This document shows positions 1 through 24,002 of a stretch of 38,196 bases of DNA, piece by piece (the stretch's first letter is position 1; each line of letters starts with the position of its first letter). The translations under genes were made by a program, and so were the position numbers. The notes beneath the pieces were generated by a model that ran no database searches, was not told where the DNA came from, and was given only the letters and a program-made list of their open reading frames with translations. Source of the stretch: a virus (taxonomy: Duplodnaviria; Heunggongvirae; Uroviricota; Caudoviricetes). The stretch lies in IMG/VR virus record IMGVR_UViG_3300029267_003506; one strand, 5' to 3'.

Positions 1-876
1 AGAAACGTTCTTATCCTCACAGTCTTGCTGAAGCCTGGATAACCAATATCGAACATTCCAACTGCCAATAGAGCGTCGAATGTTTTTACTCAATCGACGT
101 TTGAGTCTTGTGCCTTTTGTTATCCCCTTCAACTTCTCAACAACGACCAAAGAAGCATTGTCAGTAACGTCCCTGGCAACCTCATCCATCCGTTGTCTTA
201 ATGCTCTCGCTGCCTTTTGCTGTCCCTTACTCCCATGCCTGCAACGCTTGACTCTCTCAATCCTCTCCCTGATATCTGTTCCTAACCTTTCTCCCGTGGA
301 AAGCGTAGCAAGAGAATTTATCCCTGTATCAATTCCGACACACTTGTTGATCGCTTGCTTCAACCCTGTTTCAATTTCAAAACAGAATTGGACACACCTA
401 TCAGTGATGACGTAGCTGTTCAGGCGCACTCCTCGTTGAGATAAGCGATTGAATTGATCATGAAAACGAATAGGCAAATCTAATGAAATCTTTTCACCAA
501 TAGAAGCTAAGTGCAACCAAGCATCAAACTCTCTTGCGTGTTTTGCTGGCTGTAACTCAGCAATCGTGCTGGAGACAGACATTGATTTGCCTCTGTGTTT
601 CGGCTTTCTTGCTTTCTTACCATCTCTTTCTCTTGAAGCCTTGACCATTCCAATTGCTTCACGCGCTGCTACTTTTCTTAACCTGGCAGATAACCAAGTC
701 GTCGGTGAATTGACAATTGGCTTCAAAAGCTGACAACGTGCAGGACAGGATAACCAGAAAAGATCAATGAAGTGGTTAACGACTTTAGCATACTCACAAA
801 GAATGTTTCTCAGAGTTTCTCTCTTCTGTTCATTGGCAAACTTCAAAGAGCATTTGCTTGATCGCTTAATCTTCAC
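1..876 (-). CDS. tnpB: TnpB RNA-guided endonuclease (IS607 type), 3' end truncated by the window edge
   Basis: Not in the ORF track. Manual translation from GTG at 876 is open to position 1 and gives RuvC-I (CVGIDTGINSLATLS) and RuvC-II (LVVVEKL). It overlaps the tnpA stop. Confidence 0.92.
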   Translation of the reverse strand, partial: MKIKRSSKCSLKFANEQKRETLRNILCEYAKVVNHFIDLFWLSCPARCQLLKPIVNSPTTWLSARLRKVAAREAIGMVKASRERDGKKARKPKHRGKSMSVSSTIAELQPAKHAREFDAWLHLASIGEKISLDLPIRFHDQFNRLSQRGVRLNSYVITDRCVQFCFEIETGLKQAINKCVGIDTGINSLATLSTGERLGTDIRERIERVKRCRHGSKGQQKAARALRQRMDEVARDVTDNASLVVVEKLKGITKGTRLKRRLSKNIRRSIGSWNVRYWLSRLQQDCEDKNVS

Positions 877-1438
877 TTTCTGCTGCCTTTATCGCTCTTT
901 TTGCCCGATTCTTTGCTGACCTTCTACCATAAATTCTTGCACACATAGAAGTGACTACATCTGTGAAATCCTTTAAGAGATCAGAAGTCTCTTCCTCTTC
1001 ATTTATCACGATTATCCTCTTGCCAGCAGCATCAAGTGCTGCCTCAATGTAGTCAACGCCAAAGCGAGACAATCGATCTCGATGCTCAACAATGATAGTC
1101 GAGATAGATTTTGAAGAGAGAATCTTCAAAAGCTTTTTCCTCGATCCGTTAAGTCCAGATCCTATTTCCGTAATCTCCTGCGTAACCCTAAAACCCTTCT
1201 CCGAAGCGTAATCGCGGAGACGATTCATCTGACGCTCAAGATTATCTTTTTGATCACGTGAGGACACTCTTCCGTAAAGTACGACAAAATCACCAGAAGA
1301 TGGTTCTTCCGTAGGGTGTACCAATATGGTGCCTGTTGCGAGTTGTTGTGCTTCACAAGGCAATTTACCACTCTGGAACAGGCGGTGAGCCGTCCGATAA
1401 CTCAAACCATTCTGTTTCGCCCACTCTGAAAGTTTCAT
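866..1438 (-). CDS. tnpA: IS607 transposase TnpA (MerR-like HTH + serine recombinase)
   Basis: N-terminal MKLSEWAKQNGLSYRTAHR HTH, YGRVSS catalytic motif, IVEHRDRLSRFG and C-terminal CARIYGRRS. Confidence 0.95.
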   Translation of the reverse strand: MKLSEWAKQNGLSYRTAHRLFQSGKLPCEAQQLATGTILVHPTEEPSSGDFVVLYGRVSSRDQKDNLERQMNRLRDYASEKGFRVTQEITEIGSGLNGSRKKLLKILSSKSISTIIVEHRDRLSRFGVDYIEAALDAAGKRIIVINEEEETSDLLKDFTDVVTSMCARIYGRRSAKNRAKRAIKAAESED

Positions 1439-1852: not shown

Positions 1853-2032
1853 CCGTTTCTGAAAACGTAGACAAATATCCTTTAAGCCACATTTTCAGAT
1901 TTGCAACAGGCACCGTAGGGTCCTGTAAGTAATCGGTCCAAGATATTTCGGGCAGCATTTACGTCTGCATTGTCAGTGTGACTACACTTCTGACACCGAA
2001 ATACCTCTCCAATCCGATTCCTCCTACCCCTA
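1853..2032 (-). mobile_element. Orphan TnpB 3' end + IS right end (omegaRNA-sized mini-element)
   Basis: 2025-1882 translates to RRNRIGEVFRCQKCSHTDNADVNAARNILDRLLTGPYGACCKSENVA* (Zn-ribbon half + RuvC-III). It is followed by the stem TCTGAAAATGT/ACGTTTTCAGA ending in AACGG. Confidence 0.85.
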
Positions 2033-2419
2033 CCGTTTTCCGGATTGTTCATCGCTGCCTTCCTTTGGTAGAATCCTTTGTATTTTGGCGCGAAAAACGT
2101 CAGGCGTAAACGGTTTGATGATATACTGGTTTGCGCCCTTCTTTGCTGCCATGATAACTGTCATTCTATCCGCATCAGAAGTGGCTACGACGATTGGCGT
2201 TTCCCGGTCTGTCTTTCTTATCTCGCTCAGGAACTCCAAGCCGCCCATTCGCGGCATATTGAGGTCCAGAGTAACGAGGTCGAACCTTCCGCGCTCCATC
2301 TCGAAAAGCGCTTCTTTGCCATCGCGCGCTTCCACAAACTCCTCAAAACCCATGCTCGTCAGTAGCCGTATCTGAATGCGCCGGATGGTGGACGAGTCAT
2401 CCACAATCAACGCTCTCAT
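2030..2419 (-). CDS. CheY-like single-domain response regulator
   Basis: LIVDDS acidic pocket, DLNMP phospho-acceptor Asp, conserved Thr and KPF motif. Confidence 0.92.
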   Translation of the reverse strand: MRALIVDDSSTIRRIQIRLLTSMGFEEFVEARDGKEALFEMERGRFDLVTLDLNMPRMGGLEFLSEIRKTDRETPIVVATSDADRMTVIMAAKKGANQYIIKPFTPDVFRAKIQRILPKEGSDEQSGKR

Positions 2420-2437
2420 TGTTTCCCCTCTTATGTT

Positions 2438-2528
2438 TGGCGGCAGGACAGGGACTCGAACCCTGAAGGGGCATCAAAGCCCCCACCTGTTTTCGAGACA
2501 GGCCGACTACCAGTTATCGCACCCTGCC
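2438..2528 (-). tRNA. tRNA-Ser(CGA)
   Basis: CCTGT-CTCGAAA-ACAGG; long variable arm; CCA. Confidence 0.92.
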
Positions 2529-2533
2529 ATTTG

Positions 2534-2764
2534 TCATCTCTCAGACGCGCCTCCATTCTTTCTTGCCGCGAAATAGTGGGTTATTACAGCGGTTGCCAGG
2601 ACCCACCAAGATCTATCTACCTGCATCTGTACAATCTGCATGTATATTGTCGCGCCCACTACAAGCAACGCGATAACATTCGCAAAGTGTTTCTGGTTGC
2701 CAAACTCGCTCGCCAACTTGCTCACCAACCACCTGAACGACGACGGCTCTCTTTGGCTACTCAC
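2534..2764 (-). CDS. Small membrane protein (2 predicted TM segments)
   Basis: 76 aa with two hydrophobic stretches; overlaps the upstream gene end. Confidence 0.6.
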   Translation of the reverse strand: MSSQREPSSFRWLVSKLASEFGNQKHFANVIALLVVGATIYMQIVQMQVDRSWWVLATAVITHYFAARKNGGASER

Positions 2765-3059
2765 GCGTCATCTCCTCAAGCAGGGCAGCAATAACCTCGG
2801 CATGGCATCTCTTCGGAGCACACCAGCAAAGCAGTGTTACCTCTCCGTTCAAGCGTAAAATGTCAGCCAAACGCCAAAGTTCGCATACAACCTCTTGGTC
2901 CTCCTCTTCAATTCTCCCCTCCAGCCATTCCTTGTAACGCTCGATGCACTCGTCACGCTTCGACTCCGATGGCAATGGAAAAGGATTACCGAGCGGCGAA
3001 CCTCTACCGACATACTCTCCCTTGTCCCCTGCCTTCTTGTTCCCTATGGTGATCCTCAT
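2757..3059 (-). CDS. DUF4326 family protein
   Basis: YVGRGSPLGNPF and LLCWCAPKRCHAEVI motifs. Confidence 0.88.
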   Translation of the reverse strand: MRITIGNKKAGDKGEYVGRGSPLGNPFPLPSESKRDECIERYKEWLEGRIEEEDQEVVCELWRLADILRLNGEVTLLCWCAPKRCHAEVIAALLEEMTRE

Positions 3060-3074
3060 TTGTCACCTTCAATT

Positions 3075-3164
3075 TGGCGGATGGGGTGGGATTCGAACCC
3101 ACGGACGGCTTGCACCGCCACTGATTTTCAAGACCAGAGCACTAGACCACTATGCGACCCATCC
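3075..3164 (-). tRNA. tRNA-Ser(TGA)
   Basis: CTGGT-CTTGAAA-ATCAG; long variable arm; CCA. Confidence 0.92.
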
Positions 3165-3174
3165 TTACGTGAAT

Positions 3175-3262
3175 TGGCGGAAGGGACAGGACTCGAACCT
3201 GCATGTGACTCGCGCCACACCTGCTTTCCAGGCAGGACCCTTACCGTTCGGGGCACCCTTCC
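3175..3262 (-). tRNA. tRNA-Ser(GGA)
   Basis: CCTGC-CTGGAAA-GCAGG; long variable arm; CCA. Confidence 0.92.
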
Positions 3263-3263
3263 G

Positions 3264-3518
3264 TTAGCTTCTGCGCACTCTCAGCAATTTGGCATCCCTG
3301 GTCAAACTATTCCACTCCTTACCTGTGTCAATCGTGTCGTCTCGCCAATCTGCATCTACTGCGTAAACTTCAAACTCTCCCTCCTGTTTTGTCCTCTCCA
3401 GATAAGCGAGAGCATCCTTCCAAAACCGCCACACAGAGCCACCGGCGGCTTTTGCTGCGTTTTCATCCTCATCTATGTATTTCTCATATATTTCCTTCTT
3501 GCCTATTGTGAAAATCAT
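3264..3518 (-). CDS. Hypothetical protein (84 aa)
   Basis: Start reset to the ATG at 3518 (MIFTIGKK), which has a GAGGGG RBS. The longer track ORF overlaps a tRNA. Confidence 0.7.
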   Translation of the reverse strand: MIFTIGKKEIYEKYIDEDENAAKAAGGSVWRFWKDALAYLERTKQEGEFEVYAVDADWRDDTIDTGKEWNSLTRDAKLLRVRRS

Positions 3519-3534
3519 GAAGCACCCCTCATTA

Positions 3535-3620
3535 TGGCGGAAGGGACAGGACTCGAACCTGCAAGACCGTGAGGTCGCCACTTTAGCAAAGTGGTTCATT
3601 ACCAGTTATGATACCCTTCC
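3535..3620 (-). tRNA. tRNA-Ser(GCT)
   Basis: CCACT-TTGCTAA-AGTGG; long variable arm; CCA. Confidence 0.92.
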
Positions 3621-3685
3621 GTTGCCAGACAAAAGTCGCCTGAGTTCCTTTCCTGTTTTTCGAGACAAACGAAATCCCACACCAC

Positions 3686-4126
3686 TCATTCAGCAACACA
3701 ATTCCTCATGAAACCCTGCACTCCTCGGATAGCCGGCTCACTCATGCTGCTTGTCGCCCAAAAAGCCGTCCTGGGCACCAAGACGAGCCGCGCCCCTATT
3801 TCTTTGCAAGTTGAAGATTCCGGGCATTCTCGACCGTATTCCTCTCCTGTGCAATGTACGTGGGGCTTGATACTCCGAATGAAGGCATCCGGCGTATCTT
3901 CCTCAAATATAACCACTTTATCAACAAATCCTAGACTCATCAACGCTTTGCGCCGCGTCTCTTGGTCGAAAAATGGCTCAGGACGCTTTCTCCGTCGTAT
4001 GTAGTCGTCAGCGTTGATACCGACCACAAGTCGGTCTCCCTGACCACGGCAAAAACCCAGATAAAACAGATGTCCTGGGTGAATGCCATCAAAGCAGCCG
4101 TTGCAGGTGACCGTCTCTATGACTAT
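3686..4126 (-). CDS. HxGH cytidylyl/adenylyltransferase (RfaE C-terminal/TagD-like)
   Basis: The frame extends upstream of the track start and includes TCNGCFDGIHPGHL, plus VVGINAD and LGFVDKVVIFEEDTP. Only ATA is available as a start. Confidence 0.85.
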   Translation of the reverse strand: MVIETVTCNGCFDGIHPGHLFYLGFCRGQGDRLVVGINADDYIRRRKRPEPFFDQETRRKALMSLGFVDKVVIFEEDTPDAFIRSIKPHVHCTGEEYGRECPESSTCKEIGARLVLVPRTAFWATSSMSEPAIRGVQGFMRNCVAE

Positions 4127-4137
4127 TTTTCCCTTCT

Positions 4138-4214
4138 TGGTGGGCGATACAGGATTCGAACCTGTGACCTCTTCTGCGTGAGAGAAGCGCTCTAGCCAAC
4201 TGAGCTAATCGCCC
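4138..4214 (-). tRNA. tRNA-Val(CAC)
   Basis: CTTCT-CTCACGC-AGAAG; CCA. Confidence 0.92.
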
Positions 4215-4237
4215 TCATGTATCGACGCATCTCAGTT

Positions 4238-4311
4238 TGGTGGGCGTGAGAAGAGTCGAACTTCCGTCTCTGGCACGTCAAGCCAGTGCATTGCCGTTAT
4301 GCAACACGCCC
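4238..4311 (-). tRNA. tRNA-Val(GAC)
   Basis: CTGGC-TTGACGT-GCCAG; CCA. Confidence 0.9.
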
Positions 4312-4331
4312 GGACAGGATTTCGGACTTGG

Positions 4332-4526
4332 TCACTCAACCTCATCTCTCCACTCGACCTTCCGAGGCGGCTTGTCATCAAAGATTTCTTGTAGTTTCAC
4401 CTTCGCCCCTGGGATGTCCTTCCAACTAACCTTGCACAGCATGACTTTCCCTGACTGCCGAGCGTCAATGTCGTCAACAGCGTCGTCGATAGGAATTACC
4501 ACCGTCAGCGCGTACTTCCTGTCCAT
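4332..4526 (-). CDS. Hypothetical protein (64 aa)
   Basis: ATG at 4526 with a GGAAGGGA RBS, immediately after the DUF5662 gene stop. Confidence 0.6.
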   Translation of the reverse strand: MDRKYALTVVIPIDDAVDDIDARQSGKVMLCKVSWKDIPGAKVKLQEIFDDKPPRKVEWRDEVE

Positions 4527-4540
4527 CTGGTCCCTTCCAC

Positions 4541-5056
4541 TTACGAATACACACGCTCGAATATCTCGTGAATGAACCTGACTGCCCACTCTGGCAGTTC
4601 AATCCTATCCTTGTTTTTTTCGTAGTACTCCCGAGCCGTATCCCCAAACTGGTAACCCATTGCCATCCAATCCGCAACCATGCAAACGCAGTGTACCTCG
4701 CCGGCGTATGGATTGAAGAACTCCGTCGCAGCCCAGTTTTCCCAATGATGTGGATTCTCTCCCTTGTGATGTTCCCATGCCGCCGCAAAATCGGCTGAGT
4801 TGGCATCCTCATGCTCAGTAGGATAGAATTTTACGCGATACTGGACAAATTCCTCTGGCGATAGTTTCGAAACATCATGCTGTTCCAGGTGTCCTCTGAT
4901 TTCGTGAAAAACGTAGTCATCATAGATAAAACGCATGTCCTTGCACTTTTCTTGGAGTACGCCCCATGCCTTCTCGATGTTGCGCAAGTGATTTTCAATG
5001 TAGTCCAAATAACTTCGTGTACGCTCGATATGATCCATTGCGCGCATGTTAAGCAT
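4541..5056 (-). CDS. DUF5662/HD-like metal-dependent hydrolase
   Basis: HDVSKLSPEEF, AWEHHKGENPHHWENW and MVADWMAM motifs. Start reset to 5056 because the track start overlaps tRNAs. Confidence 0.8.
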   Translation of the reverse strand: MLNMRAMDHIERTRSYLDYIENHLRNIEKAWGVLQEKCKDMRFIYDDYVFHEIRGHLEQHDVSKLSPEEFVQYRVKFYPTEHEDANSADFAAAWEHHKGENPHHWENWAATEFFNPYAGEVHCVCMVADWMAMGYQFGDTAREYYEKNKDRIELPEWAVRFIHEIFERVYS

Positions 5057-5103
5057 CGTTTTCCCTTCGTCGCGGTCACAACCGAATCGTGAGTTTGTCA
5101 GTT

Positions 5104-5182
5104 TGGTAGGGCGAGAGGGAATCGAACCCTGCTGCGGACACGAGTTTATAAGACCCGTCGAATCAACCAGACTTTCCGCCCT
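5104..5182 (-). tRNA. Atypical tRNA-Ile(TAT)
   Basis: CGGGT-CTTATAA-ACTCG anticodon arm, TTCGATT T-loop, acceptor AGGGCGG/TCGCCCT and ACCA. D and variable regions are non-canonical. Confidence 0.7.
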
Positions 5183-5201
5183 CTGTCTCCTAAGCGTATT
5201 T

Positions 5202-5277
5202 TGGTAGGCGTGGAGGGATTCGAACCCCCGACCCTCTGAATGTAAGTCAGACGCTCTAGCCTCTGAGCTACACACCT
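5202..5277 (-). tRNA. tRNA-Val(TAC)
   Basis: TCTGA-CTTACAT-TCAGA; CCA. Confidence 0.92.
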
Positions 5278-5298
5278 ATGAGTTCCTGCTTCAGCCTG

Positions 5299-5550
5299 TC
5301 ACGAGCCTCGCGCGAGGAGAATGCCCATTATCTTGTCAGCCTCGTCACGGTCGCTTTCTTTTTCCTCCTCCGGCAAACTCCCATATTCCGTATTCATCTG
5401 ACGCTCCCACCTCTCGACAAGGCTCCTGGGAATCGTCACTGTGCCGTCTTCGTTCTTTTTGGACTTACTGAACATGTACTTCATCCAGCCGCTCCAGGCA
5501 TCATGCGCATACCTTGCCAACGTTTCCCTCATGCTCTGTTTCCCCTTCAT
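5299..5550 (-). CDS. Hypothetical phage protein (YxxLPEEEKESDR, RyR-domain-like motif)
   Basis: 83 aa with AHDAW...YGSLPEEEKESDR. Confidence 0.65.
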   Translation of the reverse strand: MKGKQSMRETLARYAHDAWSGWMKYMFSKSKKNEDGTVTIPRSLVERWERQMNTEYGSLPEEEKESDRDEADKIMGILLARGS

Positions 5551-5972: not shown

Positions 5973-6060
5973 TGGTGCGAGCGAGAGGATTCGAACCTCC
6001 AGTAGGGACAAGCCCAAACAGAGCCTGAGTCTGCCGCGTCTGCCATTGCGCCACGCTCGC
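5973..6060 (-). tRNA. tRNA-Leu(CAG)
   Basis: GCAGA-CTCAGGC-TCTGT; long variable arm; CCA. Confidence 0.92.
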
Positions 6061-6072
6061 ATTCTTATAAAG

Positions 6073-6185
6073 AGGAAGCCGGCAACCACGTCTTTCCGCT
6101 AGCCAGCAAGCGCTTGCCAACCTGCGGAGTAGCCCCAAGAGCGCTCTTGGACGACCACACGAAGGAATTGAACCTCCAGCTTCCT
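6073..6185 (-). ncRNA. Unassigned structured RNA containing a tRNA T-arm
   Basis: Closing stem AGGAAGC/GCTTCCT, T-arm GGAGG-TTCAATT-CCTTC and two long hairpins. Confidence 0.55.
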
Positions 6186-6195
6186 AAAAACAAAA

Positions 6196-6341
6196 GGCAC
6201 CAAAAAATACAAGGAGTGTCTTTTTACCGGCGCGTTTGCCAATTTCGCCACAAGCCATCCGAGGACGACCCGGTGGGGCTCGAACCCACAAGTCCCGAAG
6301 GACACCGGTTTCTCTGAAGTATCTCCTCGCTGAAGCGTGCC
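6196..6341 (-). ncRNA. Circularly permuted tRNA-Leu-like RNA (YrlA-like topology)
   Basis: Order is anticodon 3' strand, variable arm, T-arm, acceptor closed by a loop, D-arm, anticodon 5' strand. It is enclosed by GGCAC/GTGCC and followed by a U-rich tract. Confidence 0.8.
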
Positions 6342-6355
6342 TTTTCTTTGTTTAT

Positions 6356-6428
6356 TACCCCCAACCGGACTCGAACCGGTGTCTGCAGACTGAGAATCTG
6401 CCATCCTGGGCCACTAGACGATGGGGGC
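6356..6428 (-). tRNA. tRNA-Glu(CTC)
   Basis: GCAGA-TTCTCAG-TCTGC; Glu-type D arm; no encoded CCA. Confidence 0.9.
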
Positions 6429-6752
6429 ATTTCTGCTTTCTTTGCAGCACTCACAATCACAGCGTCTCCAAGTCCCATTATACGACTTGGCCCACCTTAT
6501 GACGTTTACAGCCATTTTACGTCCATATCCAAATTTCTTGCGCAAATGGCGGACAATTTCATCGTCTCCGCGTCTCTTTTTGTGCAGCGCTAAAGCCACC
6601 TTGCCGGCAATCCAGCACGCTCTGTCGTAGTCAACATCGTCCCATTCGTTCGGGGGAGTTGAGCCAGATCTTACGCCGTTGATTTTTGCGCTTTTCCCTC
6701 CACGCGGGCAACGAAAATACGTCCATGGATATCTCTTCCAACTCTTTCCCAT
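6414..6752 (-). CDS. Hypothetical basic protein
   Basis: 112 aa with a GAAAGGAG RBS; the stop falls inside the tRNA-Glu 5' end. Confidence 0.65.
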   Translation of the reverse strand: MGKSWKRYPWTYFRCPRGGKSAKINGVRSGSTPPNEWDDVDYDRACWIAGKVALALHKKRRGDDEIVRHLRKKFGYGRKMAVNVIRWAKSYNGTWRRCDCECCKESRNAPIV

Positions 6753-6821: not shown

Positions 6822-6955
6822 GGACGCCAAAAACCGCGTAGGCTGCTTGTGCTGCCGTGCTGCCACTGCACTATGGGGCCGTCTGATGTAGCCCCAGAGG
6901 GAATCGAACCCCCGTCTGCAGATTGAAAGAAGTAGTCCTATGCTGAAGCGCGTCC
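6822..6955 (-). ncRNA. Circularly permuted tRNA-like RNA with a TTC triplet (YrlA-like topology)
   Basis: CTTTCAA-TCTGC, T-arm, acceptor TGGGGCT/GGCCCCA closed by a 9-nt loop, D-arm GTGC-AGTGGCA-GCAC; enclosed by GGACGC/GCGTCC. Confidence 0.8.
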
Positions 6956-7132: not shown

Positions 7133-7209
7133 TGGCACCCCCGACAGGATTCGAACCTGCAATATCCAGCATGAAAAACTGGCGTCCTAAACCATTAGAC
7201 GACGGGGGC
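7133..7209 (-). tRNA. tRNA-Glu(TTC)
   Basis: CCAGT-TTTTCAT-GCTGG; CCA. Confidence 0.92.
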
Positions 7210-7225
7210 AAAAATCCTTTCATTT

Positions 7226-7313
7226 TGGTGCGAGCGGGGAGATTCGAACTCCCAGTAGGGACAAGCCCAAACAGTCCCTCAAACTGCCGCGTCTGCCGTT
7301 GCGCCACGCTCGC
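7226..7313 (-). tRNA. tRNA-Leu(GAG)
   Basis: GCAGT-TTGAGGG-ACTGT; long variable arm; CCA. Confidence 0.92.
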
Positions 7314-14895: not shown

Positions 14896-17433
14896 TCAAG
14901 TTTCGAGTTCGTGAACCACCGTAACCGTTGAGCCTGCAAAGCCCTTACAGGTCAACGTGTCACCACCCGAATCAACGTGACCACACAGCATCACGGTAAA
15001 CGGCAGGTCAGCCATAGAAGCCAACTTAATCTGACCACTACGCCAACGACCTGTCTTCGTCGTCGATTCGTTGATGTCATCCGTCAGGTCAACCGCGCCT
15101 GTGACCGTTGCCGTCGAGCCAGCAACAACCATCAGTTTGGAGTTGCCCGTATTCGCGTCCATCTCACCGTTCCAACCGACGTCGACATAAGCAGAACGGC
15201 ACGCCACTGCACCCATGCCCTGACCGATAATCTTGGAGGCCATGATGCAAGTGTCGGCACTGTAGTCGGTATCCGTGGAATCGCTTGTGGTGATTTCTTC
15301 CTCATCATTGCCATCAGCAGTAAGAGTACCGCTTGTCTTGAGAAAGACGCTTTCCTCGAACTGACTGAAGTTGTCCTGGAGCGTATCAACCTTGGACTCC
15401 ACAGTGCCCAGCAGCGTTTCATTCGTGTTCAACATCGAGACATCGGTTGCATGCTTGCTGGTGACCAACGCATCAGTTGTTGCATGTTTGCTGTCGATCT
15501 CAGCGTCAGTCGTAGCGTGCTTGCTGTCAATCTCGGCTTCGTTGGTGTCAGCCATCGACTTGACAGTGGTGAGCATCGACTCATTGGTGTTCAGCATCGA
15601 CACGTCAGTCGCGTGCTTGCTGGTAACCAACGCATCTGAAGTCGTGTGTTTGCTGGCAATGAGCGTGTCGGTAGTTGCGTGCTTGCTGTCAATCTCACCA
15701 ATAACGCCTTCGTTGTCAACAATCACGATACTCTTGCCGTTGTACCGGGTCACGCTGTTTTCAATCACCTTGACTTCTGCATAGTACGAACCCAAAGCCT
15801 GTGCAGAACTGACAGACCAGTCGTAGCGATAGACAGCGTCCGGGGTGCGACCGTCAGAGGTCATGGATGTCTCGGCAACAATCGTAGCGCCGCTCGCATC
15901 GGTAATCTTGATGGTCGGAGCGCTATCAGGTGCCTCCATGTTTCCGGACGAATCGTAGTTATACGCCCAGAAACGCACATTGGCTGAGCCTGAGTCAGGC
16001 CGCTCAAAGTCACTAGGAGCCACAATCTTGGTAAGCATATTGTTGCTGATCGCACCAATAGCATTGATTGTGGTGGTGAGCAACGACTCGTTGGTGTTCA
16101 GCATGGACGCATCAGTAGCGTGCTTGCTGGTGACCAATGCATCAGTCGTCGCATGCTTGCTGTCAATCTCGGTCTCGTTCGTATCGACCTTGGACTCGAT
16201 GGTGCCCAGCAACGTCTCATTGGTGTTAAGCATCGACACGTCAGTAGCATGCTTGCTAGTAATCAGCACGTCGGTGGTGGCGTGCTTGCTGTCAATCTCG
16301 GCTTCGTTGGTATCAGCCATTGATTTGACAGTGGTAAGCAGAGACTCATTCGTGTCCAGCATCGAGACATCAGTCGCATGCTTGCTGGTGATCAGGGCAT
16401 CCGTGGTCGTGTGTTTGCTGTCAATCTCGGCATCCGTCGCGGTGTGCTTCGTCGAGATCAGCGTGTCGGTCGTGGTGTGCTTGCTGTCAATCTCAGAATC
16501 AGTGGTGGCGTGCTTGCTGTCAATCTCGGCTTCGTTCGTATCCACCATCGACTTAACGGTGGTGAGCAGAGATTCATTCGTATCCACCTGAGAACTGATA
16601 ACGTCCTGCATTGACACCGAAGCGTCACCACTGGAAATGGTGTCAATCTTTGACTCGACCGTGTCAACCTTGGACTCGACCGTATCGACTTTGGATTCGA
16701 CCGTGTCAACCTTGGACTCGACGGTACCCAGCAGCGTTTCGTTCGTGTTAAGCATGGACGCGTCGGTTGCATGCTTGCTAGTAATCAGCGCGTCGGTGGT
16801 GGTGTGTTTGCTGTCAACCTCGGCTTCGTTCGTGTCCACCATCGACTTAACGGTGGTGAGCAGAGACTCATTCGTATCCACCTGAGAACTGATAACGTCC
16901 TGCATTGACACCGAAGCGTCACCACTGGAAATGGTGTCAATCTTTGACTCGACCGTGTCAACCTTGGATTCGACCGTGTCAACCTTGGACTCAACCGTGC
17001 CCAACAGCGTTTCGTTGGTGTTAAGCATCGACGCATCAGTAGCGTGCTTGCTGGTGATCAGCGCGTCGGTGGTTGCGTGCTTGCTGTCAACCTCAGCTTC
17101 GTTGGTATCAGCCATTGATTTGACAGTGGTGAGCAGAGATTCATTGGTGTCCACCTGGGAACTGATAACGTCCTGCATTGACACCGAAGCATCACCACTG
17201 GAAATGGTGTCAATCTTCGACTCGACCGTGTCAACCTTGGATTCGACAGTGCCCAACAGCGTTTCGTTGGTGTTAAGCATCGACACGTCAGTAGCATGCT
17301 TGCTAGTGATCAGCGCGTCGGTAGTGGAGTGTTTGCTATCTACCTCCGAGCTAGCCGTAGTAATCAGACTGTCAGTCGTCGCATGTTTACTATCGACCTC
17401 CTCTTTTACCCTTCTTTCCACATAAGCAGCCAT
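14896..17433 (-). CDS. Long repetitive S/T-rich virion protein (coiled-coil stalk + C-terminal beta domains)
   Basis: Nested 11-aa (DSKHATTDxxI) and 7-aa (VESKVDT) repeats around an Ig-like segment. Confidence 0.8.
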   Translation of the reverse strand: MAAYVERRVKEEVDSKHATTDSLITTASSEVDSKHSTTDALITSKHATDVSMLNTNETLLGTVESKVDTVESKIDTISSGDASVSMQDVISSQVDTNESLLTTVKSMADTNEAEVDSKHATTDALITSKHATDASMLNTNETLLGTVESKVDTVESKVDTVESKIDTISSGDASVSMQDVISSQVDTNESLLTTVKSMVDTNEAEVDSKHTTTDALITSKHATDASMLNTNETLLGTVESKVDTVESKVDTVESKVDTVESKIDTISSGDASVSMQDVISSQVDTNESLLTTVKSMVDTNEAEIDSKHATTDSEIDSKHTTTDTLISTKHTATDAEIDSKHTTTDALITSKHATDVSMLDTNESLLTTVKSMADTNEAEIDSKHATTDVLITSKHATDVSMLNTNETLLGTIESKVDTNETEIDSKHATTDALVTSKHATDASMLNTNESLLTTTINAIGAISNNMLTKIVAPSDFERPDSGSANVRFWAYNYDSSGNMEAPDSAPTIKITDASGATIVAETSMTSDGRTPDAVYRYDWSVSSAQALGSYYAEVKVIENSVTRYNGKSIVIVDNEGVIGEIDSKHATTDTLIASKHTTSDALVTSKHATDVSMLNTNESMLTTVKSMADTNEAEIDSKHATTDAEIDSKHATTDALVTSKHATDVSMLNTNETLLGTVESKVDTLQDNFSQFEESVFLKTSGTLTADGNDEEEITTSDSTDTDYSADTCIMASKIIGQGMGAVACRSAYVDVGWNGEMDANTGNSKLMVVAGSTATVTGAVDLTDDINESTTKTGRWRSGQIKLASMADLPFTVMLCGHVDSGGDTLTCKGFAGSTVTVVHELET
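15371..17400 (-). repeat. Intragenic tandem repeats (21-bp, 33-bp and ~250-bp units)
   Basis: accttggactcgaccgtgtca-like 21-mers and three copies of the ISSGDASVSMQDVISSQVDTNESLLTTVKSM block. Confidence 0.9.
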
Positions 17434-19340: not shown

Positions 19341-19493
19341 CTACCGTCCCTTGACCGTCACCGCAGAAGAGTCACCGATTTTGACGCCAGAGCCCGCCGT
19401 TTGTTTCTTGACGGCGGCTGTCTTGAGAACGCCATCTTTGTCTTTGAAACACTTCTGCTCGGGCTTGCGTTGTTCCTTGCGCTTAATCATCAT
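19341..19493 (-). CDS. Small basic hypothetical protein (50 aa)
   Basis: Manual translation MMIKRKEQRK...VTVKGR*; GGAGG RBS; ATGA overlap with the metacaspase stop. Confidence 0.55.
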   Translation of the reverse strand: MMIKRKEQRKPEQKCFKDKDGVLKTAAVKKQTAGSGVKIGDSSAVTVKGR

Positions 19494-20476
19494 ATTCCTC
19501 CGAAGGGAACAACATCCAACATGTCGTCAGGTCCGCTCAATTGGGGAATCTGGCTATATCTGCCAGCCTTCAAGTCGCCAATGACCTTCTGGTGGATGCT
19601 TATCCAGTCCGCATCTGGCATCTCATCCAACACGCTCGTTAGAGTGGCTGTCAATGCACCTTGGTATTCGCCGTCAATGTAGGCATCTGCGCTCGTTTGG
19701 TCATCCCGACAACCCGAAATCAACATGTGGTTTTGGGGATTGATACGCGTAACATCGTTCGAGCGCACTCCAACTTCCCGCCACCCCACGCGCTTCCTTT
19801 GCAGTGACCGACCATGGCTTCGCAGCATGATATCAACAGGAGGACGCAGATAACGAATTCCAGTTGGGTGGGGATTTCCGAACGTCCCCCTATCAACGGT
19901 GCCACTGTGACAACAATCTGCGACAAAGGTCAGACGCGCGCCTTTCTTGGCTACACGCTTGAAATAGGTAGCCAGGAGGTCATCAGTGAGTGGGTCATCC
20001 CAATCCATGTCATGCGTGCAGAGCAACTCGTCAAGGTGGTCATCTAGTTCATCATTGTTTCTATCACGCGTCTGAGAACCATGCCCAGAAAAATGAAAAA
20101 CGAGATGGTCGCCCGCCTTCGCAACCTGAACGAGCCATTCAAGTCGCTGTATGATGTTAGCCTTGGTCGCGCGAGCATCAGTGAGCACCCGGATGTTATC
20201 AGGGTCGAAATGGTAAAGTTTCGTCAGCCGTTCCCACATGCTTTCCACGTCGTTTACGCACCCACGCAAATCTGCTCCGGGCATCGCGTATTTGTTAATA
20301 CCCACCAACAAGGCGTAGCGATTCTTCTTCATGGGCACTACAGAATCCGCTGGCGTCGAAGGGTTTGTCGATTCATCTGCCACTGGTTTCACGCCTCCAA
20401 ATCCAAGTAGTTTCCTGAAGAAAGCCACAATCGCCCGCACAAAGCCCATAGCCATCTCCTCATCACGCGGAAACAT
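19490..20476 (-). CDS. Caspase-family (C14, metacaspase/orthocaspase) protease
   Basis: YALLVGINKY, LRGCVND, FHFSGHGSQ (catalytic His), ADCCHSG (catalytic Cys) and QIPQL motifs. Confidence 0.93.
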   Translation of the reverse strand: MFPRDEEMAMGFVRAIVAFFRKLLGFGGVKPVADESTNPSTPADSVVPMKKNRYALLVGINKYAMPGADLRGCVNDVESMWERLTKLYHFDPDNIRVLTDARATKANIIQRLEWLVQVAKAGDHLVFHFSGHGSQTRDRNNDELDDHLDELLCTHDMDWDDPLTDDLLATYFKRVAKKGARLTFVADCCHSGTVDRGTFGNPHPTGIRYLRPPVDIMLRSHGRSLQRKRVGWREVGVRSNDVTRINPQNHMLISGCRDDQTSADAYIDGEYQGALTATLTSVLDEMPDADWISIHQKVIGDLKAGRYSQIPQLSGPDDMLDVVPFGGI

Positions 20477-21130: not shown

Positions 21131-21727
21131 TTATGACCTGACCGGTGTAAACTCAGCCTGCAAAATGTGAGAAACACCTGGAAAATGCAACGCGGCAAAA
21201 CGCTCAATCGCAGCCACATCCCCAATGTGCTGAAAGGTCGTCGTGCGTAACTCCACGTCTACTCTGTATTTCTGGGCTGCTCTCACCGTCTCTGTAACGC
21301 GCTGAAGATACATCTCGTCGTCAATTGTCGTTCCTAAAACGTTACTAGCATTAGAGATACACTTCAGGTCCACGCTGAGGGCGTCCAGAATTCCCCGGGA
21401 CGCCACATTTTCGACGACATCAGGCATCATTCCGTTCGTGAAGACCTTAACCCTCAATGCGTGCTTTGTATGAGCCCTTTCGGCGGCGTCTACGAGTTTC
21501 TGACCCCAAAGGGTAGGTTCACCTCCCAGGAAGACCGCTGCTTCGTGCAGCGGCGTTATATGGGCGTCCAGCAACTCAATAGCGGTTCCTTTCGACTCTC
21601 CCTGCGTAATCTCTTCGTAGTTGTAGCACCCCCGGCAAGCAAGATTACAGCCAGAGCAAAAAAGCACGAGAGCCTGATAGTCTTCGTATTCCTGAAAACT
21701 GTCCAAAATCACCTGAACGATTTTCAT
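21131..21727 (-). CDS. nrdG: Anaerobic RNR activating enzyme (radical SAM)
   Basis: CSGCNLACRGCYN CxxxCxxC motif and FLGGEPT; directly downstream of nrdD. Confidence 0.92.
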   Translation of the reverse strand: MKIVQVILDSFQEYEDYQALVLFCSGCNLACRGCYNYEEITQGESKGTAIELLDAHITPLHEAAVFLGGEPTLWGQKLVDAAERAHTKHALRVKVFTNGMMPDVVENVASRGILDALSVDLKCISNASNVLGTTIDDEMYLQRVTETVRAAQKYRVDVELRTTTFQHIGDVAAIERFAALHFPGVSHILQAEFTPVRS

Positions 21728-22320
21728 GCTGATGCCAAGACCTCCTCAAACTTCCCGACTGCTTCAATCGCAATGGGCTCCTCTGGAGCCACGCCGCCAT
21801 TCGAGTAGAAAACCCGATTTGGATATTCGTAGCCACGGCGCACAGGATTCCAACTCCTAACTGGTGTCACGAATCCGACCACCCGCGTGTACTGCTGCTG
21901 GATAGGCTCGCCGCAGACGGGACAAATTTCCTTGCGCCCGATGCTGTAGTGTAATTTCGCGCACTCACTGTAGGCGTAGTTAACCGCGAAATACACAGTA
22001 CCACTATTCTTCGCATGCTCCATGATGCGCTTGAACTGCCGGGCTCCCAAGGGCTTCTCATCGTCCACGTTCATGTGAAGGATGGCACCCCCGCTTGTCA
22101 ACCCGTCAATGCGCCCCTGGATACGAAACCGGTCGTGAATGCTGGCTTCCTCAACCAGCGGAATGTACTGGTTCGAGTAGAGTTCAAATTCCCTCGGATT
22201 GAACCCCATGAGGCGGTCAATCTGAGCCAGCCGCACAGCCATTGACTCGGCTGGAATTTGCTCAATGTTATAGATTGTTTTTTCCTGTTTCCTGTTTGCG
22301 GTCGCTTTGACGAATTTCAC
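21724..22320 (-). CDS. nrdD: Class III RNR, C-terminal polypeptide (glycyl-radical domain)
   Basis: YNIEQIPAES, SGGAILH, Zn-site cysteines and YTRVVGF glycyl-radical loop. Candidate GTG start at 22320 with an AAAGGA RBS. Confidence 0.88.
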   Translation of the reverse strand: MKFVKATANRKQEKTIYNIEQIPAESMAVRLAQIDRLMGFNPREFELYSNQYIPLVEEASIHDRFRIQGRIDGLTSGGAILHMNVDDEKPLGARQFKRIMEHAKNSGTVYFAVNYAYSECAKLHYSIGRKEICPVCGEPIQQQYTRVVGFVTPVRSWNPVRRGYEYPNRVFYSNGGVAPEEPIAIEAVGKFEEVLASA

Positions 22321-23956: not shown

Positions 23957-24002
23957 GTGGCTTCCCCACCTACCTCGGTTTTCCACGGCAACACAAGGAA
24001 CC

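What the first reader, a model, noticed from the sequence alone, without database searches (positions are those of the whole stretch)
6196..6341. Circularly permuted tRNA-Leu-like RNA
Seen (minus strand): GGCAC GCTTCAGC GAGGAG ATA CTT [CA GAG AA] ACCGG, variable arm GTCC-TTCG-GGAC, T-arm GTGGG-TTCGAGC-CCCAC, acceptor CGGGTCG joined by TCCTCGGA to TGGCTTG, Leu-type D-arm GCG-AAATTGGCAAA-CGC, then CCGGT AAA AAG ACA CTCCTTGT ATTTTTTG GTGCC TTTT. The 3' half precedes the 5' half, the acceptor end is sealed, and a Leu triplet GAG is kept in a 7-nt strand of an internal loop. A normal tRNA-Leu(GAG) also exists at 7226-7313. Known: YrlA-type Y RNAs have this topology, and permuted tRNA genes are processed in some algae and archaea via BHB motifs. 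Here no BHB, no clear GNCGAA Ro60 motif and no Ro60 gene are visible. Inference: a distinct class of phage tRNA mimic or permuted precursor, possibly an anticodon-nuclease decoy or a substrate for cleavage and ligation.
Basis: partly seen in the sequence, partly recalled or inferred. Interest (0 to 1): 0.88.

Follow-up and report, generated by a model that had tools for sequence, protein, structure and literature searches.

The report
Phage Y-RNA-like permuted tRNA mimic
This is a real ~146-base phage RNA gene shaped like a tRNA-Leu with its two halves swapped and its end sealed, mounted on a conserved "handle"; in other phages the same handle lies just upstream of a Ro60 protein gene, so it is most likely a variant Y RNA, yet this phage appears to have no Ro60 gene of its own.

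Summary
Minus strand 6196-6341 is a circularly permuted, acceptor-sealed tRNA-Leu-like body on a two-helix scaffold.

It is not unique. A paralogue with a tRNA-Glu-like body lies at 6822-6955. I found 18 members in my final alignment, and four further hits beside Ro60 genes in two more phage records.

All share one handle: a 6-bp stem, an internal loop (GCUUCA opposite a U-rich 8-mer), a second stem, then UACUUC. Covariation is strong: 95.5% of cells pair, against 40-45% in slid controls.

Some members are handle-only minis. The handle is therefore the conserved unit and the tRNA piece is a variable insert.

In five independent phage records, family RNAs lie 39-785 nt upstream of a TROVE/Ro60 gene on the same strand. 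The architecture parallels YrlA helix for helix. The defining GNCGAA motif is absent, and Rfam's YrlA model scores below threshold (18.9 bits against 69).

This phage shows no TROVE, DUF2828, RtcB or RNA-ligase gene in about 97% of its 116.7-kb genome.

Verdict: a new handle variant of the known Y-RNA/YrlA kind, not a new class and not a permuted pre-tRNA. Earlier scan notes describe related phage RNAs (ACAGCAA handle, DUF2828) on other DNA.

The parts
6316..6341 (-). 5' strand of the handle of copy A: P1 GGCAC (6337-6341), loop GCUUCA (6331-6336), P2 GCGAGGAG (6323-6330), AUA, and the invariant UACUUC (6316-6321), which includes P3 CUU
   Evidence: Sequence; pairs checked. C4, C6, CUUC, G13, G19 and UACUU-C are invariant in 12 of 12 members. 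P1 and P2 covary.
6226..6316 (-). Circularly permuted tRNA-Leu-like body of copy A. In order: loop strand CAGAGAA (6310-6316), anticodon-stem 3' strand (6305-6309), long variable arm (6290-6304), T-arm (6273-6289), acceptor 3' strand (6266-6272), sealing loop UCCUCGGA (6258-6265), acceptor 5' strand (6251-6257), D-arm (6232-6248), anticodon-stem 5' strand (6226-6230)
   Evidence: Rejoining at 31|32 gives an ARAGORN tRNA-Leu(gag) call. The halves hit phage tRNA-Leu genes by blastn. The Rfam YrlA model aligns full-length at 18.9 bits.
6196..6225 (-). 3' strand of the handle of copy A: AAA, P3 AAG (6220-6222), ACA, P2 CUCCUUGU (6209-6216), loop AUUUUUUG (6201-6208), P1 GUGCC (6196-6200)
   Evidence: UUGG-Y-G is invariant in 12 of 12 members.
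6822..6955 (-). Copy B: the same handle (GGACGC/GCGUCC, GCUUCAGC, UAGG/CCUA, UACUUC, GGUUUUUG) carrying a permuted tRNA-Glu-like body with loop strand CUUUCAA
   Evidence: R1/R2 model hits. A versus B shows 13 of 35 pairs compensatory. The rejoined sequence is called tRNA-Glu(ttc). YrlA scores 26.9 bits on the core.
6073..6185 (-). Element C, 10 nt after A: a 10-bp closing stem enclosing a T-arm and two long hairpins. It has the same permuted arm order but lacks the handle motifs; its membership in the family is not shown.
   Evidence: R1 matches only its T-arm (6161-6177). Its position matches G001, where a handle-bearing element follows the Leu-like copy by 13 nt.
7226..7313 (-). Genuine tRNA-Leu(GAG), same anticodon as the 7-nt-register reading of copy A
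   Evidence: ARAGORN and Rfam tRNA.
7133..7209 (-). Genuine tRNA-Glu(UUC), same anticodon as the reading of copy B
   Evidence: ARAGORN and Rfam tRNA.

Best explanation
The element is a small non-coding RNA gene of the Y-RNA / YrlA type. It has two modules.

Module 1 is a conserved handle. It consists of a 6-bp closing stem P1, an asymmetric internal loop (GCUUCA on the 5' side, a U-rich 8-mer ending UUG on the 3' side), an 8-bp stem P2, and then the invariant UACUUC. By inference, this handle is the docking site for a ring-shaped Ro60/Rsr (TROVE) protein.

Module 2 is a tRNA-Leu-derived body in permuted order (T-arm, sealed acceptor helix, D-arm). By analogy with YrlA, it presents a tRNA-like surface to tRNA-binding or RNA-decay enzymes.

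The RNA is probably cut out of the long tRNA-array transcript. This phage has two such RNAs, one Leu-like (A) and one Glu-like (B).

Because the phage itself shows no Ro60 gene, the RNAs would have to work with the host's Rsr or with an unrecognised partner.

Shown: the structure, the family, the covariation, and the genomic linkage of the family to Ro60 genes in other phages. Inferred: Ro60 binding, the tethering or gating role, and the partner in this phage.
For: 1. The family is real.
- The B-only model finds A at 41.1 bits, E 1.7e-9.
- The final alignment holds 18 members from the window's phage, L029 and IMG/VR records G001-G004. Further hits lie in G006 and G009.

2. The structure is under selection.
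- 95.5% of cells pair, against 40-45% in slid controls.
- 157 cells are compensatory, against 9-27 in slid controls.
- P1 has 5 of 6 pairs compensatory and P2 has 4 of 6.

3. The handle is the conserved unit.
- Minis of 61-71 nt have the handle only (L116:5881-5941, L116:5390-5453, L119:13022-13082, L126:601-666, L132:1256-1326).
- Bodies derive from different tRNAs.

4. The family is linked to Ro60, always co-oriented with the gene.
- G001: a mini lies 425 nt upstream of a 575-aa protein with TROVE (84.9 bits) and vWA_Ro60 (37.6 bits).
- G004/G005: a mini lies 785 nt upstream of a 585-aa TROVE ORF.
- G006 (complete, 201 kb): copies of 71.5 and 50.7 bits plus weak minis lie 39-1950 nt upstream of a 616-aa TROVE ORF.
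- G009: two copies lie 157 and 510 nt upstream of a 478-aa TROVE ORF.
- G002 also encodes TROVE.
- Pattern-matching non-carriers G007, G008 and G010 have none.

5. The architecture parallels YrlA helix for helix. YrlA is the only Rfam family that matches, and it aligns full-length over model positions 1-114. Ro60-adjacent relatives also score only 29-35 bits.

6. G009 copies combine a near-canonical GGCGAU loop with UUACUUC.

7. There is precedent. YrlA was reported in 22 phages (PMC4201824). Thermus phage phiLo's Ro60 binds phage Yrl RNAs and host PNPase (PMC12135203).
Against: - The defining GNCGAAN0-1G motif is absent from all 12 members tested.
- Rfam YrlA scores 18.9 and 26.9 bits against a gathering score of 69.
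- No TROVE or DUF2828 gene was found in this phage. This rests on window ORFs, a genome walk covering all but about 3.3 kb of a 116.7-kb contig, phmmer/blastp with two Ro60-type queries against all six-frame ORFs, and the absence of this phage's contig sizes among the 120 best Ro60 homologues.
- Binding of this handle to any Ro60 is untested.
- In G002 the RNAs and the TROVE gene are far apart on an incomplete contig.
- Many proteins of this phage have no assignable family, so another partner is possible.
Confidence: 0.6

Rival explanations
1. Ro60-independent, isoacceptor-specific tRNA mimic. The handle only stabilises or processes the RNA. The Leu- and Glu-like bodies, with their exposed anticodon-loop strands, act as decoys or sponges for host anticodon nucleases, tRNA-modifying enzymes or synthetases during infection.
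For: - This phage has no recognisable Ro60.
- A and B read, in the natural 7-nt register, as Leu(GAG) and Glu(UUC). These are the anticodons of the two genuine tRNAs lying side by side upstream.
- The Glu-type loop CUUUCAA is identical in B and in the G001 counterpart although the flanking stems differ. L129:858-994 reads AUUCCAA.
- Two members keep a whole anticodon hairpin: Asn GUU in L029 and a Trp-like loop in L121:1556-1718.
Against: - Handle-only minis have no tRNA part, yet they are the copies nearest Ro60 genes.
- In A and B the loop strand sits in an internal loop, not a hairpin.
- A and its closest relative differ in the triplet (GAG versus UAA), and both carry A33 instead of the near-universal U33.
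- The anticodon ARAGORN reports shifts with the join register.
- No nuclease target is known for these isoacceptors in an unknown host.
Confidence: 0.2
2. Circularly permuted pre-tRNA. The handle is removed, positions 31 and 32 are ligated, and RNase P together with 3' processing opens the acceptor loop to release functional tRNA-Leu and tRNA-Glu.
For: - The 3' half precedes the 5' half, and the rejoined sequences pass ARAGORN.
- Acceptor loops resemble N73-CCA-spacer: U-CCU in A, A-CAU in B, G-CCA in L029.
- M. smegmatis YrlA can be cut by RNase P and receive CCA (PMC4201824).
Against: - No RtcB, RNA ligase, Pnkp or splicing-type endonuclease was found in about 97% of the genome.
- I saw no bulge-helix-bulge motif in the sequence.
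- A has 4 G-U in its 7 acceptor pairs, a U73 discriminator and A33.
- Both anticodons are already supplied by normal genes 200-900 nt away.
- Handle-only members, and members joined at 26/27, cannot yield tRNAs by this route.
- The closest relative of A has a disrupted acceptor helix.
Confidence: 0.05
3. Decaying remnant of tandem tRNA genes. The 3' half of one copy, the spacer and the 5' half of the next happen to fold; the element has no function.
For: - Tandem tRNAs give partial hits to the same model (L121:8714-8852, L116:7720-7788, L121:1768-1840).
- The acceptor loops look like CCA-plus-spacer, so this is a plausible evolutionary origin.
Against: - The handle has invariant motifs and compensatory changes across 18 members in several phages.
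- The same handle carries unrelated tRNA bodies.
- The sequence is 100% identical in independent samples from JGI, ENA and Logan.
Confidence: 0.03

Closest known systems
YrlA, the tRNA-like bacterial and phage Y RNAs bound by Ro60/Rsr (Rfam RF02553; Chen et al. 2014, PMC4201824)
   Same: - Same order of parts: closing stem, internal loop, second stem, small loop, anticodon-type stem, (variable arm), T-arm, sealed acceptor helix, D-arm, and back.
- The 3' internal loop is similar (AaAcUuG in YrlA, GAYUUUUG here).
- Relatives lie within 4 kb upstream of, and co-oriented with, a TROVE gene.
- It occurs in phages among tRNA genes.
   Different: - The 5' motif GNCGAAN0-1G is replaced by (G)CUUCAG.
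- An extra invariant UACUUC is present.
- Scores are far below Rfam's gathering score.
- A 6-7-nt anticodon-loop-like strand is kept.
- Bodies come from several isoacceptor types.
- This phage has no Ro60 gene within 4 kb, or anywhere seen.
Yrl1/Yrl2 of Thermus phage phiLo with phage Ro60 (PMC12135203)
   Same: These are phage-encoded stem-bulge-stem RNAs upstream of a phage Ro60 gene. The handle-only minis here have a comparable size and placement.
   Different: The phiLo RNAs were identified by a CGAA motif, which was shown to contribute to binding. They have no tRNA-like body. The handle motifs here are different, and binding is untested.
Circularly permuted tRNA genes of red and green algae and Thermofilum
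   Same: The 3' half is encoded upstream of the 5' half. The rejoined sequence is a full cloverleaf.
   Different: Those genes are matured through a bulge-helix-bulge motif, a splicing endonuclease, a ligase and a circular intermediate. Here there is no such motif and no such enzymes, and family members exist that cannot yield a tRNA.
Felix O1-type phage RNAs with a stem plus ACAGCAA handle next to a DUF2828 Ro60-like gene
   Same: - They lie in tRNA arrays.
- The layout is a stem, then 3-4 nt, then CAGC, then (UU)ACUU.
- Some copies carry permuted tRNA bodies and some are handle-only.
   Different: - The motif here is CUUCAG(Y), followed by a P2 helix that Felix O1 copies lack.
- The partner family is TROVE, not DUF2828: 0 of 5 carrier records have DUF2828.
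- Homology of the two handles is suggestive only.
Two-piece tmRNA from permuted ssrA genes
   Same: The acceptor 3' piece is encoded before the acceptor 5' piece, with a short intervening loop.
   Different: There is no tag reading frame and no pseudoknots. ARAGORN finds no tmRNA. The Rfam scan of this stretch matched only YrlA. G3-U70 occurs in A only, among other wobble pairs.

Membership tests
YrlA / bacterial-phage Y RNA (RF02553; PMC4201824) | tRNA-like domain in the order T-arm, closed acceptor-like stem, D-arm, enclosed by a long stem | tested here: met
   Structure. The YrlA model aligns over positions 1-114. The rejoined halves are called tRNA-Leu.
YrlA / bacterial-phage Y RNA (RF02553; PMC4201824) | GNCGAAN0-1G motif near the 5' end (proposed Ro60 contact) | tested here: not met
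   A regular-expression search over 12 members found none. CGAA never occurs in the 5' handle; it occurs only inside the insert, mostly in T-loops or D-arms.
YrlA / bacterial-phage Y RNA (RF02553; PMC4201824) | Encoded within about 4 kb of a Ro60/TROVE gene on the same strand | tested here: not met
   This locus has no TROVE gene in the window or in about 97% of the 116.7-kb genome. The criterion is met by family relatives in G001, G004/G005, G006 and G009.
YrlA / bacterial-phage Y RNA (RF02553; PMC4201824) | Rfam gathering score (69 bits) | tested here: not met
   A scores 18.9 bits and B scores 26.9 bits. Ro60-adjacent relatives also score only 29-35 bits, so this threshold does not discriminate within this clade.
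YrlA / bacterial-phage Y RNA (RF02553; PMC4201824) | Physical binding to Ro60/Rsr; tRNA-type modifications; RNase P cleavage | not testable with these tools
   These need EMSA or immunoprecipitation, modification mapping and an RNase P assay.
Circularly permuted tRNA gene (matured to a functional tRNA) | 3' half upstream of 5' half, rejoinable into a complete cloverleaf | tested here: met
   Nine of 11 full-size members rejoin into an ARAGORN-acceptable tRNA; the anticodon reported depends on the join register.
Circularly permuted tRNA gene (matured to a functional tRNA) | Bulge-helix-bulge motif at the termini, and a splicing endonuclease/ligase to circularise | tested here: not met
   The termini form P1, an internal loop, P2, a loop and P3, with symmetric or unequal internal loops rather than 3-nt bulges flanking a 4-bp helix. 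No endonuclease, RtcB, RNA-ligase or Pnkp domains appear in the Pfam calls over the genome.
Felix O1-type ACAGCAA-handle RNAs with DUF2828 (scan-internal family) | Stem followed by ACAGCAA | tested here: not met
   Only CAGC is shared. A reads CAGCGA, B reads CAGCAU and L029 reads CAGCAG, and most G001 copies read CAGU.
Felix O1-type ACAGCAA-handle RNAs with DUF2828 (scan-internal family) | DUF2828 (PF11443) gene next to the array | tested here: not met
   The family is present in Felix O1. It is absent from carriers G001-G005 and from this phage.
Permuted (two-piece) tmRNA | tRNA-Ala-like domain plus a tag reading frame and pseudoknots | tested here: not met
   ARAGORN finds no tmRNA. No tmRNA or tmRNA_permuted match covers 6050-6360 at E up to 10.

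The most novel reading that the evidence does not exclude
A Ro60-less phage carries 'orphan' Y-RNA-type tRNA mimics. They would work in one of two ways. Either they capture the host's own Rsr/PNPase machinery using only RNA, without a phage Ro60. Or they have been repurposed as isoacceptor-specific (Leu, Glu) decoys whose retained anticodon-loop strands matter. Under either reading, the CUUCAG/UACUUC handle would define a large, uncatalogued subfamily of Y RNAs in jumbo phages whose tRNA inserts are swappable cargo.
Probability: 0.25. Interest if true: 0.7.

Novelty: new variant of a known kind. Interest (0 to 1): 0.5.

Why it matters
Y RNAs and Ro60 are conserved from bacteria to humans, yet the role of the tRNA-like module is still unclear. 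The known bacterial and phage set is defined by one motif (GNCGAA) and one Rfam model.

This locus belongs to a second handle type that the Rfam model does not capture. It is found beside Ro60 genes in several large phages. Its design is modular: the same handle occurs bare or carrying bodies derived from different tRNAs.

That offers a natural series for asking what Ro60 recognises and what the tRNA module recruits.

A phage that keeps two such RNAs without a Ro60 gene would, if confirmed, be a test case for RNA-only hijacking of a host RNA-decay machine.

Practically, these genes are missed by tRNA and Rfam annotation of phage tRNA arrays.

Tried and rejected
- Close relatives in the phage collection: megablast found none. 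Distant blastn hit only tRNA-Leu halves.
- Exact 45-mer, and two scaffold patterns, in IMG/VR: 0 real hits. The 26 matches of the scaffold-only pattern were all chance, with no P1 and no T-loop.
- Metagenome and genome-collection scans: 64 loci, of which only L029 holds a true member. L026/L034 is a partial tRNA 3' end beside what looks like an integration site, not a member.
- MAFFT alignment of A and B was structurally wrong. I replaced it with model-guided alignments.
- Same-phage contigs from JGI, ENA and Logan are 100% identical across the RNA loci, so they give no natural variation there.
- The 391-aa gene next to the array is tail-fibre-like, not an RNA binder. The 488-aa protein gave nothing.
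- The truncated ORF at 1-876 is TnpB, not Ro60.
- My 'control' contigs for the Ro60 association were not clean: G006 and G009 proved to be real carriers.
- tmRNA-like and alanine-identity ideas: G3-U70 occurs only in A, and there is no tag frame.
- The loop CUUCAG is complementary to a tRNA-Phe(GAA) anticodon loop (CUGAAG). I noted this as an idea only and did not test it.
There is no expression or end-mapping evidence.

Full report
**1. The observation**

The window is a 38-kb, 51.6% GC stretch of an uncultured phage. It has 16 tRNA genes on the minus strand between 1495 and 8406.

All 40 base pairs of the proposed structure are standard pairs.

Neither ARAGORN nor Rfam at gathering thresholds calls anything there. 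Folding energy alone is unremarkable (z = -1.31), so significance has to come from comparison with related sequences.

**2. A paralogue and a shared scaffold**

That element (B) has the same outer scaffold around a different body.

| Feature | A | B |
|---|---|---|
| P1 | GGCAC/GUGCC | GGACGC/GCGUCC |
| 5' loop | GCUUCA | GCUUCA |
| P2 | differs from B, with compensating changes | differs from A, with compensating changes |
| After P2 | UACUUC | UACUUC |
| P3 | CUU/AAG | CUU/AAG |
| 3' loop | AUUUUUUG | GGUUUUUG |

- A covariance model built from B alone (R1) finds A full-length at 41.1 bits (E 1.7e-9). The next window hit is noise at 13.9 bits.
- In the model-guided A/B alignment, 13 of 35 pairs change on both sides, against 0-1 in slid controls.
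- Rejoining the halves at position 31|32 gives sequences that ARAGORN calls tRNA-Leu(GAG) and tRNA-Glu(UUC). The genuine tRNAs with these anticodons lie side by side at 7226-7313 and 7133-7209.
- The anticodon ARAGORN reports shifts with the join register. This reading therefore rests on the natural 7-nt register plus body type: A has a long variable arm and B has a Glu-type D-arm.

**3. Relatives**

The same phage, 100% identical across both RNA loci, occurs in JGI, ENA and Logan assemblies. It therefore recurs in nature but offers no variation.

Pattern scans filtered with model R2 (built from A and B) found true relatives in these places:
- A 4-kb metagenome contig with another tRNA array (L029:1813-1947, 36.7 bits).
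- IMG/VR record G001, 253 kb.
- G002 (144 kb), G003 (24-kb fragment) and G004/G005 (39 and 71 kb).
- G006 (complete, 201 kb) and G009 (complete, 69 kb).

The final alignment has 18 real members plus three rows that are only tandem tRNAs. On it:
- 95.5% of cells pair, against 40-45% in slid controls.
- 157 cells are compensatory, against 9-27.
- P1 has 5 of 6 pairs compensatory and is 99.1% paired.
- P2 has 4 of 6 pairs compensatory and is 100% paired.

This alignment was fitted to the model's structure, which favours it. The slid controls share that bias, and the margin is large.

Positions invariant in 12 of 12 members are C4, C6, CUUC, G13, G19 and UACUU-C on the 5' strand, and UUGG-Y-G on the 3' strand.

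**4. The handle is the unit**

Five members of 61-71 nt consist of the handle alone, closed by a short loop.

The full-size members carry bodies derived from different tRNAs:
- Leu-like: A, and L121:1397-1543 at 101.5 bits.
- Glu-like: B, and L121:280-432.
- An Asn(GUU) hairpin in L029.
- Others.

In A and B the handle joins at the 5' side of the anticodon loop. In L029 and L121:1556-1718 it joins between the D-arm and an intact anticodon hairpin.

Such variety is hard to reconcile with maturation into functional tRNAs. It fits a constant protein-binding module carrying variable tRNA-like cargo.

**5. Link to Ro60**

| Record | TROVE ORF | Family RNAs upstream, same strand |
|---|---|---|
| G001 | 575 aa; TROVE 84.9 bits, vWA_Ro60 37.6 bits | handle-only copy, 425 nt |
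| G004/G005 | 585 aa | mini, 785 nt |
| G006 | 616 aa | two full-size copies (71.5 and 50.7 bits) and two weak minis, 39-1950 nt |
| G009 | 478 aa | two divergent copies, 157 and 510 nt |

- G002 has a TROVE gene distant from its RNAs on an incomplete contig.
- Three pattern-matching contigs that are not carriers have no TROVE.
- No carrier has DUF2828.

Location within 4 kb of Ro60 on the same strand is the criterion Chen et al. used to call YrlA RNAs in 254 bacteria and 22 phages (PMC4201824).

The G009 copies read GGCGAUAGA, one base from GNCGAA, yet keep UUACUUC. They bridge the classical motif and this handle.

**6. Comparison with YrlA**

YrlA is the only Rfam family that matches A at permissive thresholds. 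It aligns over the whole model (18.9 bits); for B it matches the core (26.9 bits).

The consensus layouts correspond helix for helix:

| Part | YrlA | Here |
|---|---|---|
| Closing stem, 5' | cggCga | nnnCAC |
| 5' loop | AUGC | GCUUCA |
| Second stem, 5' | uuggGga | P2 |
| Small loop | aCUA | UACUUC |
| 3' loop | AaAcUuG | GAYUUUUG |

The defining GNCGAAN0-1G is absent from every member. All scores are below the gathering score of 69. So are those of the Ro60-adjacent relatives (29-35 bits), which means the threshold does not argue against kinship.

Published phage examples use a CGAA motif (PMC4201824; phiLo Yrl1/Yrl2, PMC12135203).

I therefore class this as a new handle variant of the Y-RNA/YrlA kind, not a strict RF02553 member.

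**7. This phage lacks a visible partner**

- Large window ORFs have no TROVE, DUF2828, RtcB, ligase or Pnkp domain.
- The array is flanked by a tail-fibre-like gene and by an IS607-type pair, a serine recombinase plus TnpB. All assemblies break at that pair.
- Walking the genome with precomputed Pfam calls covered all but about 3.3 kb of a 116.7-kb contig. My own scans of the unassigned large proteins found nothing Ro-like.
- phmmer and blastp with the Felix O1 DUF2828 protein and the G001 Ro60 against all six-frame ORFs gave no hit better than E about 0.5.
- None of the 120 best homologues of the G001 Ro60 sits on a contig of this phage's sizes.
- There are no tRNAs or further family members outside the window.

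Caveat. The unseen 3.3 kb would adjoin the IS element and the array if the genome is circularly permuted, and many proteins are unassignable. I put absence of a phage Ro60 at about 75%.

**8. Relation to earlier scan notes**

The scan has repeatedly reported phage RNAs with a stem plus ACAGCAA handle beside DUF2828 genes.

I checked Felix O1. It has a DUF2828 gene at 22.1-23.5 kb next to its tRNA array. Four handle RNAs in the array read (GA)AGACC, 2-3 nt, ACAGCAA, then ACUUAA.

The order here is similar: stem, 3-4 nt, CAG(C), then (UU)ACUU. The motif, the extra P2 helix and the partner family all differ, so common ancestry is suggestive only.

**9. Mechanism and odds**

| Reading | Probability |
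|---|---|
| Y RNA whose handle docks Ro60/Rsr and whose tRNA-like body recruits or mimics tRNA partners; in this phage it would use host Rsr or an unknown protein | 0.6 |
| Ro60-independent, isoacceptor-specific decoy | 0.2 |
| Permuted pre-tRNA | 0.05 |
| Decayed tandem tRNAs | 0.03 |

Binding, expression and processing are all untested. No promoter or terminator is predicted inside the array, which suggests processing from a polycistronic transcript.

**10. Verdict**

This is a new variant of a known kind, of moderate interest. The interest lies in three points: a modular handle family that Rfam misses, its recurrent placement upstream of phage Ro60 genes, and the apparent absence of Ro60 from this particular phage.

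Noticed in passing
window 6073-6185 (-): Element C starts 10 nt after copy A. It has a 10-bp closing stem, a T-arm and two long hairpins, in the same permuted arm order but without the handle motifs. In G001 a handle-bearing element follows the Leu-like copy by 13 nt, so C may be its degenerate counterpart.
   Followed up: partly
window 1-1438 (-): A serine recombinase (866-1438) is followed by a truncated TnpB/OrfB_IS605 ORF (1-876). This is an IS607-type insertion just downstream of the tRNA array. Every assembly of this phage breaks here.
   Followed up: partly
window 21724-26888 (-): The anaerobic ribonucleotide reductase NrdD is split. A 961-aa part carries a LAGLIDADG insert, and a 210-aa C-terminal part lies separately. 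A 572-aa homing/HNH endonuclease (phrog_3339) sits between them. NrdG lies at 21131-21727.
   Followed up: no
L029:1527-1608 (+): A tRNA-Phe(GAA)-like gene, missed by ARAGORN, has a ~14-nt insertion in its D-loop reading GGACACGUUUCAGUGG. This resembles the P1 plus GCUUCAG start of the handle found 200 nt downstream.
   Followed up: no
window 6331-6336 and family-wide: The invariant loop word CUUCAG is complementary to the anticodon loop CUGAAG of a tRNA-Phe(GAA). UACUUC repeats the CUUC word. A possible loop-loop contact with tRNA-Phe was not tested.
   Followed up: no
window 2030-5550 (-): Small protein genes are interleaved with the tRNAs: a response-regulator receiver domain (2030-2419), DUF4326/DUF488-like (2757-3059), DUF5662 (4541-5275) and a RyR-domain protein (5299-5550).
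   Followed up: no
L119:9933-17571 (G001 record ~64.9-72.6 kb): The jumbo phage's Ro60 gene has notable neighbours. Upstream lie a CCA-adding/poly(A)-polymerase-type nucleotidyltransferase with an HD domain, a lone tRNA and a 33-aa lysine-rich ORF. Downstream lies ClpP.
   Followed up: no
window 6355-6429 (-): tRNA-Glu(CUC) is the only one of the 16 tRNAs without an encoded 3' CCA. Both phage tRNA-Glu genes and copy B share a G1-U72 first acceptor pair.
   Followed up: no
window 19490-20476 (-): A caspase-like Peptidase_C14 protein (328 aa, E 8e-31) is encoded in a phage genome. Elsewhere in the genome there is a CobT-like vWA protein with a CobS-like AAA+ partner (L109:1093-2955 and L109:4637-5872) and a DUF2201 vWA protein.
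   Followed up: no
window ~15480-17350 (-), within the 845-aa ORF: The 845-aa ORF contains internal DNA repeats of about 84-91% identity, seen as self-hits in blastn.
   Followed up: no
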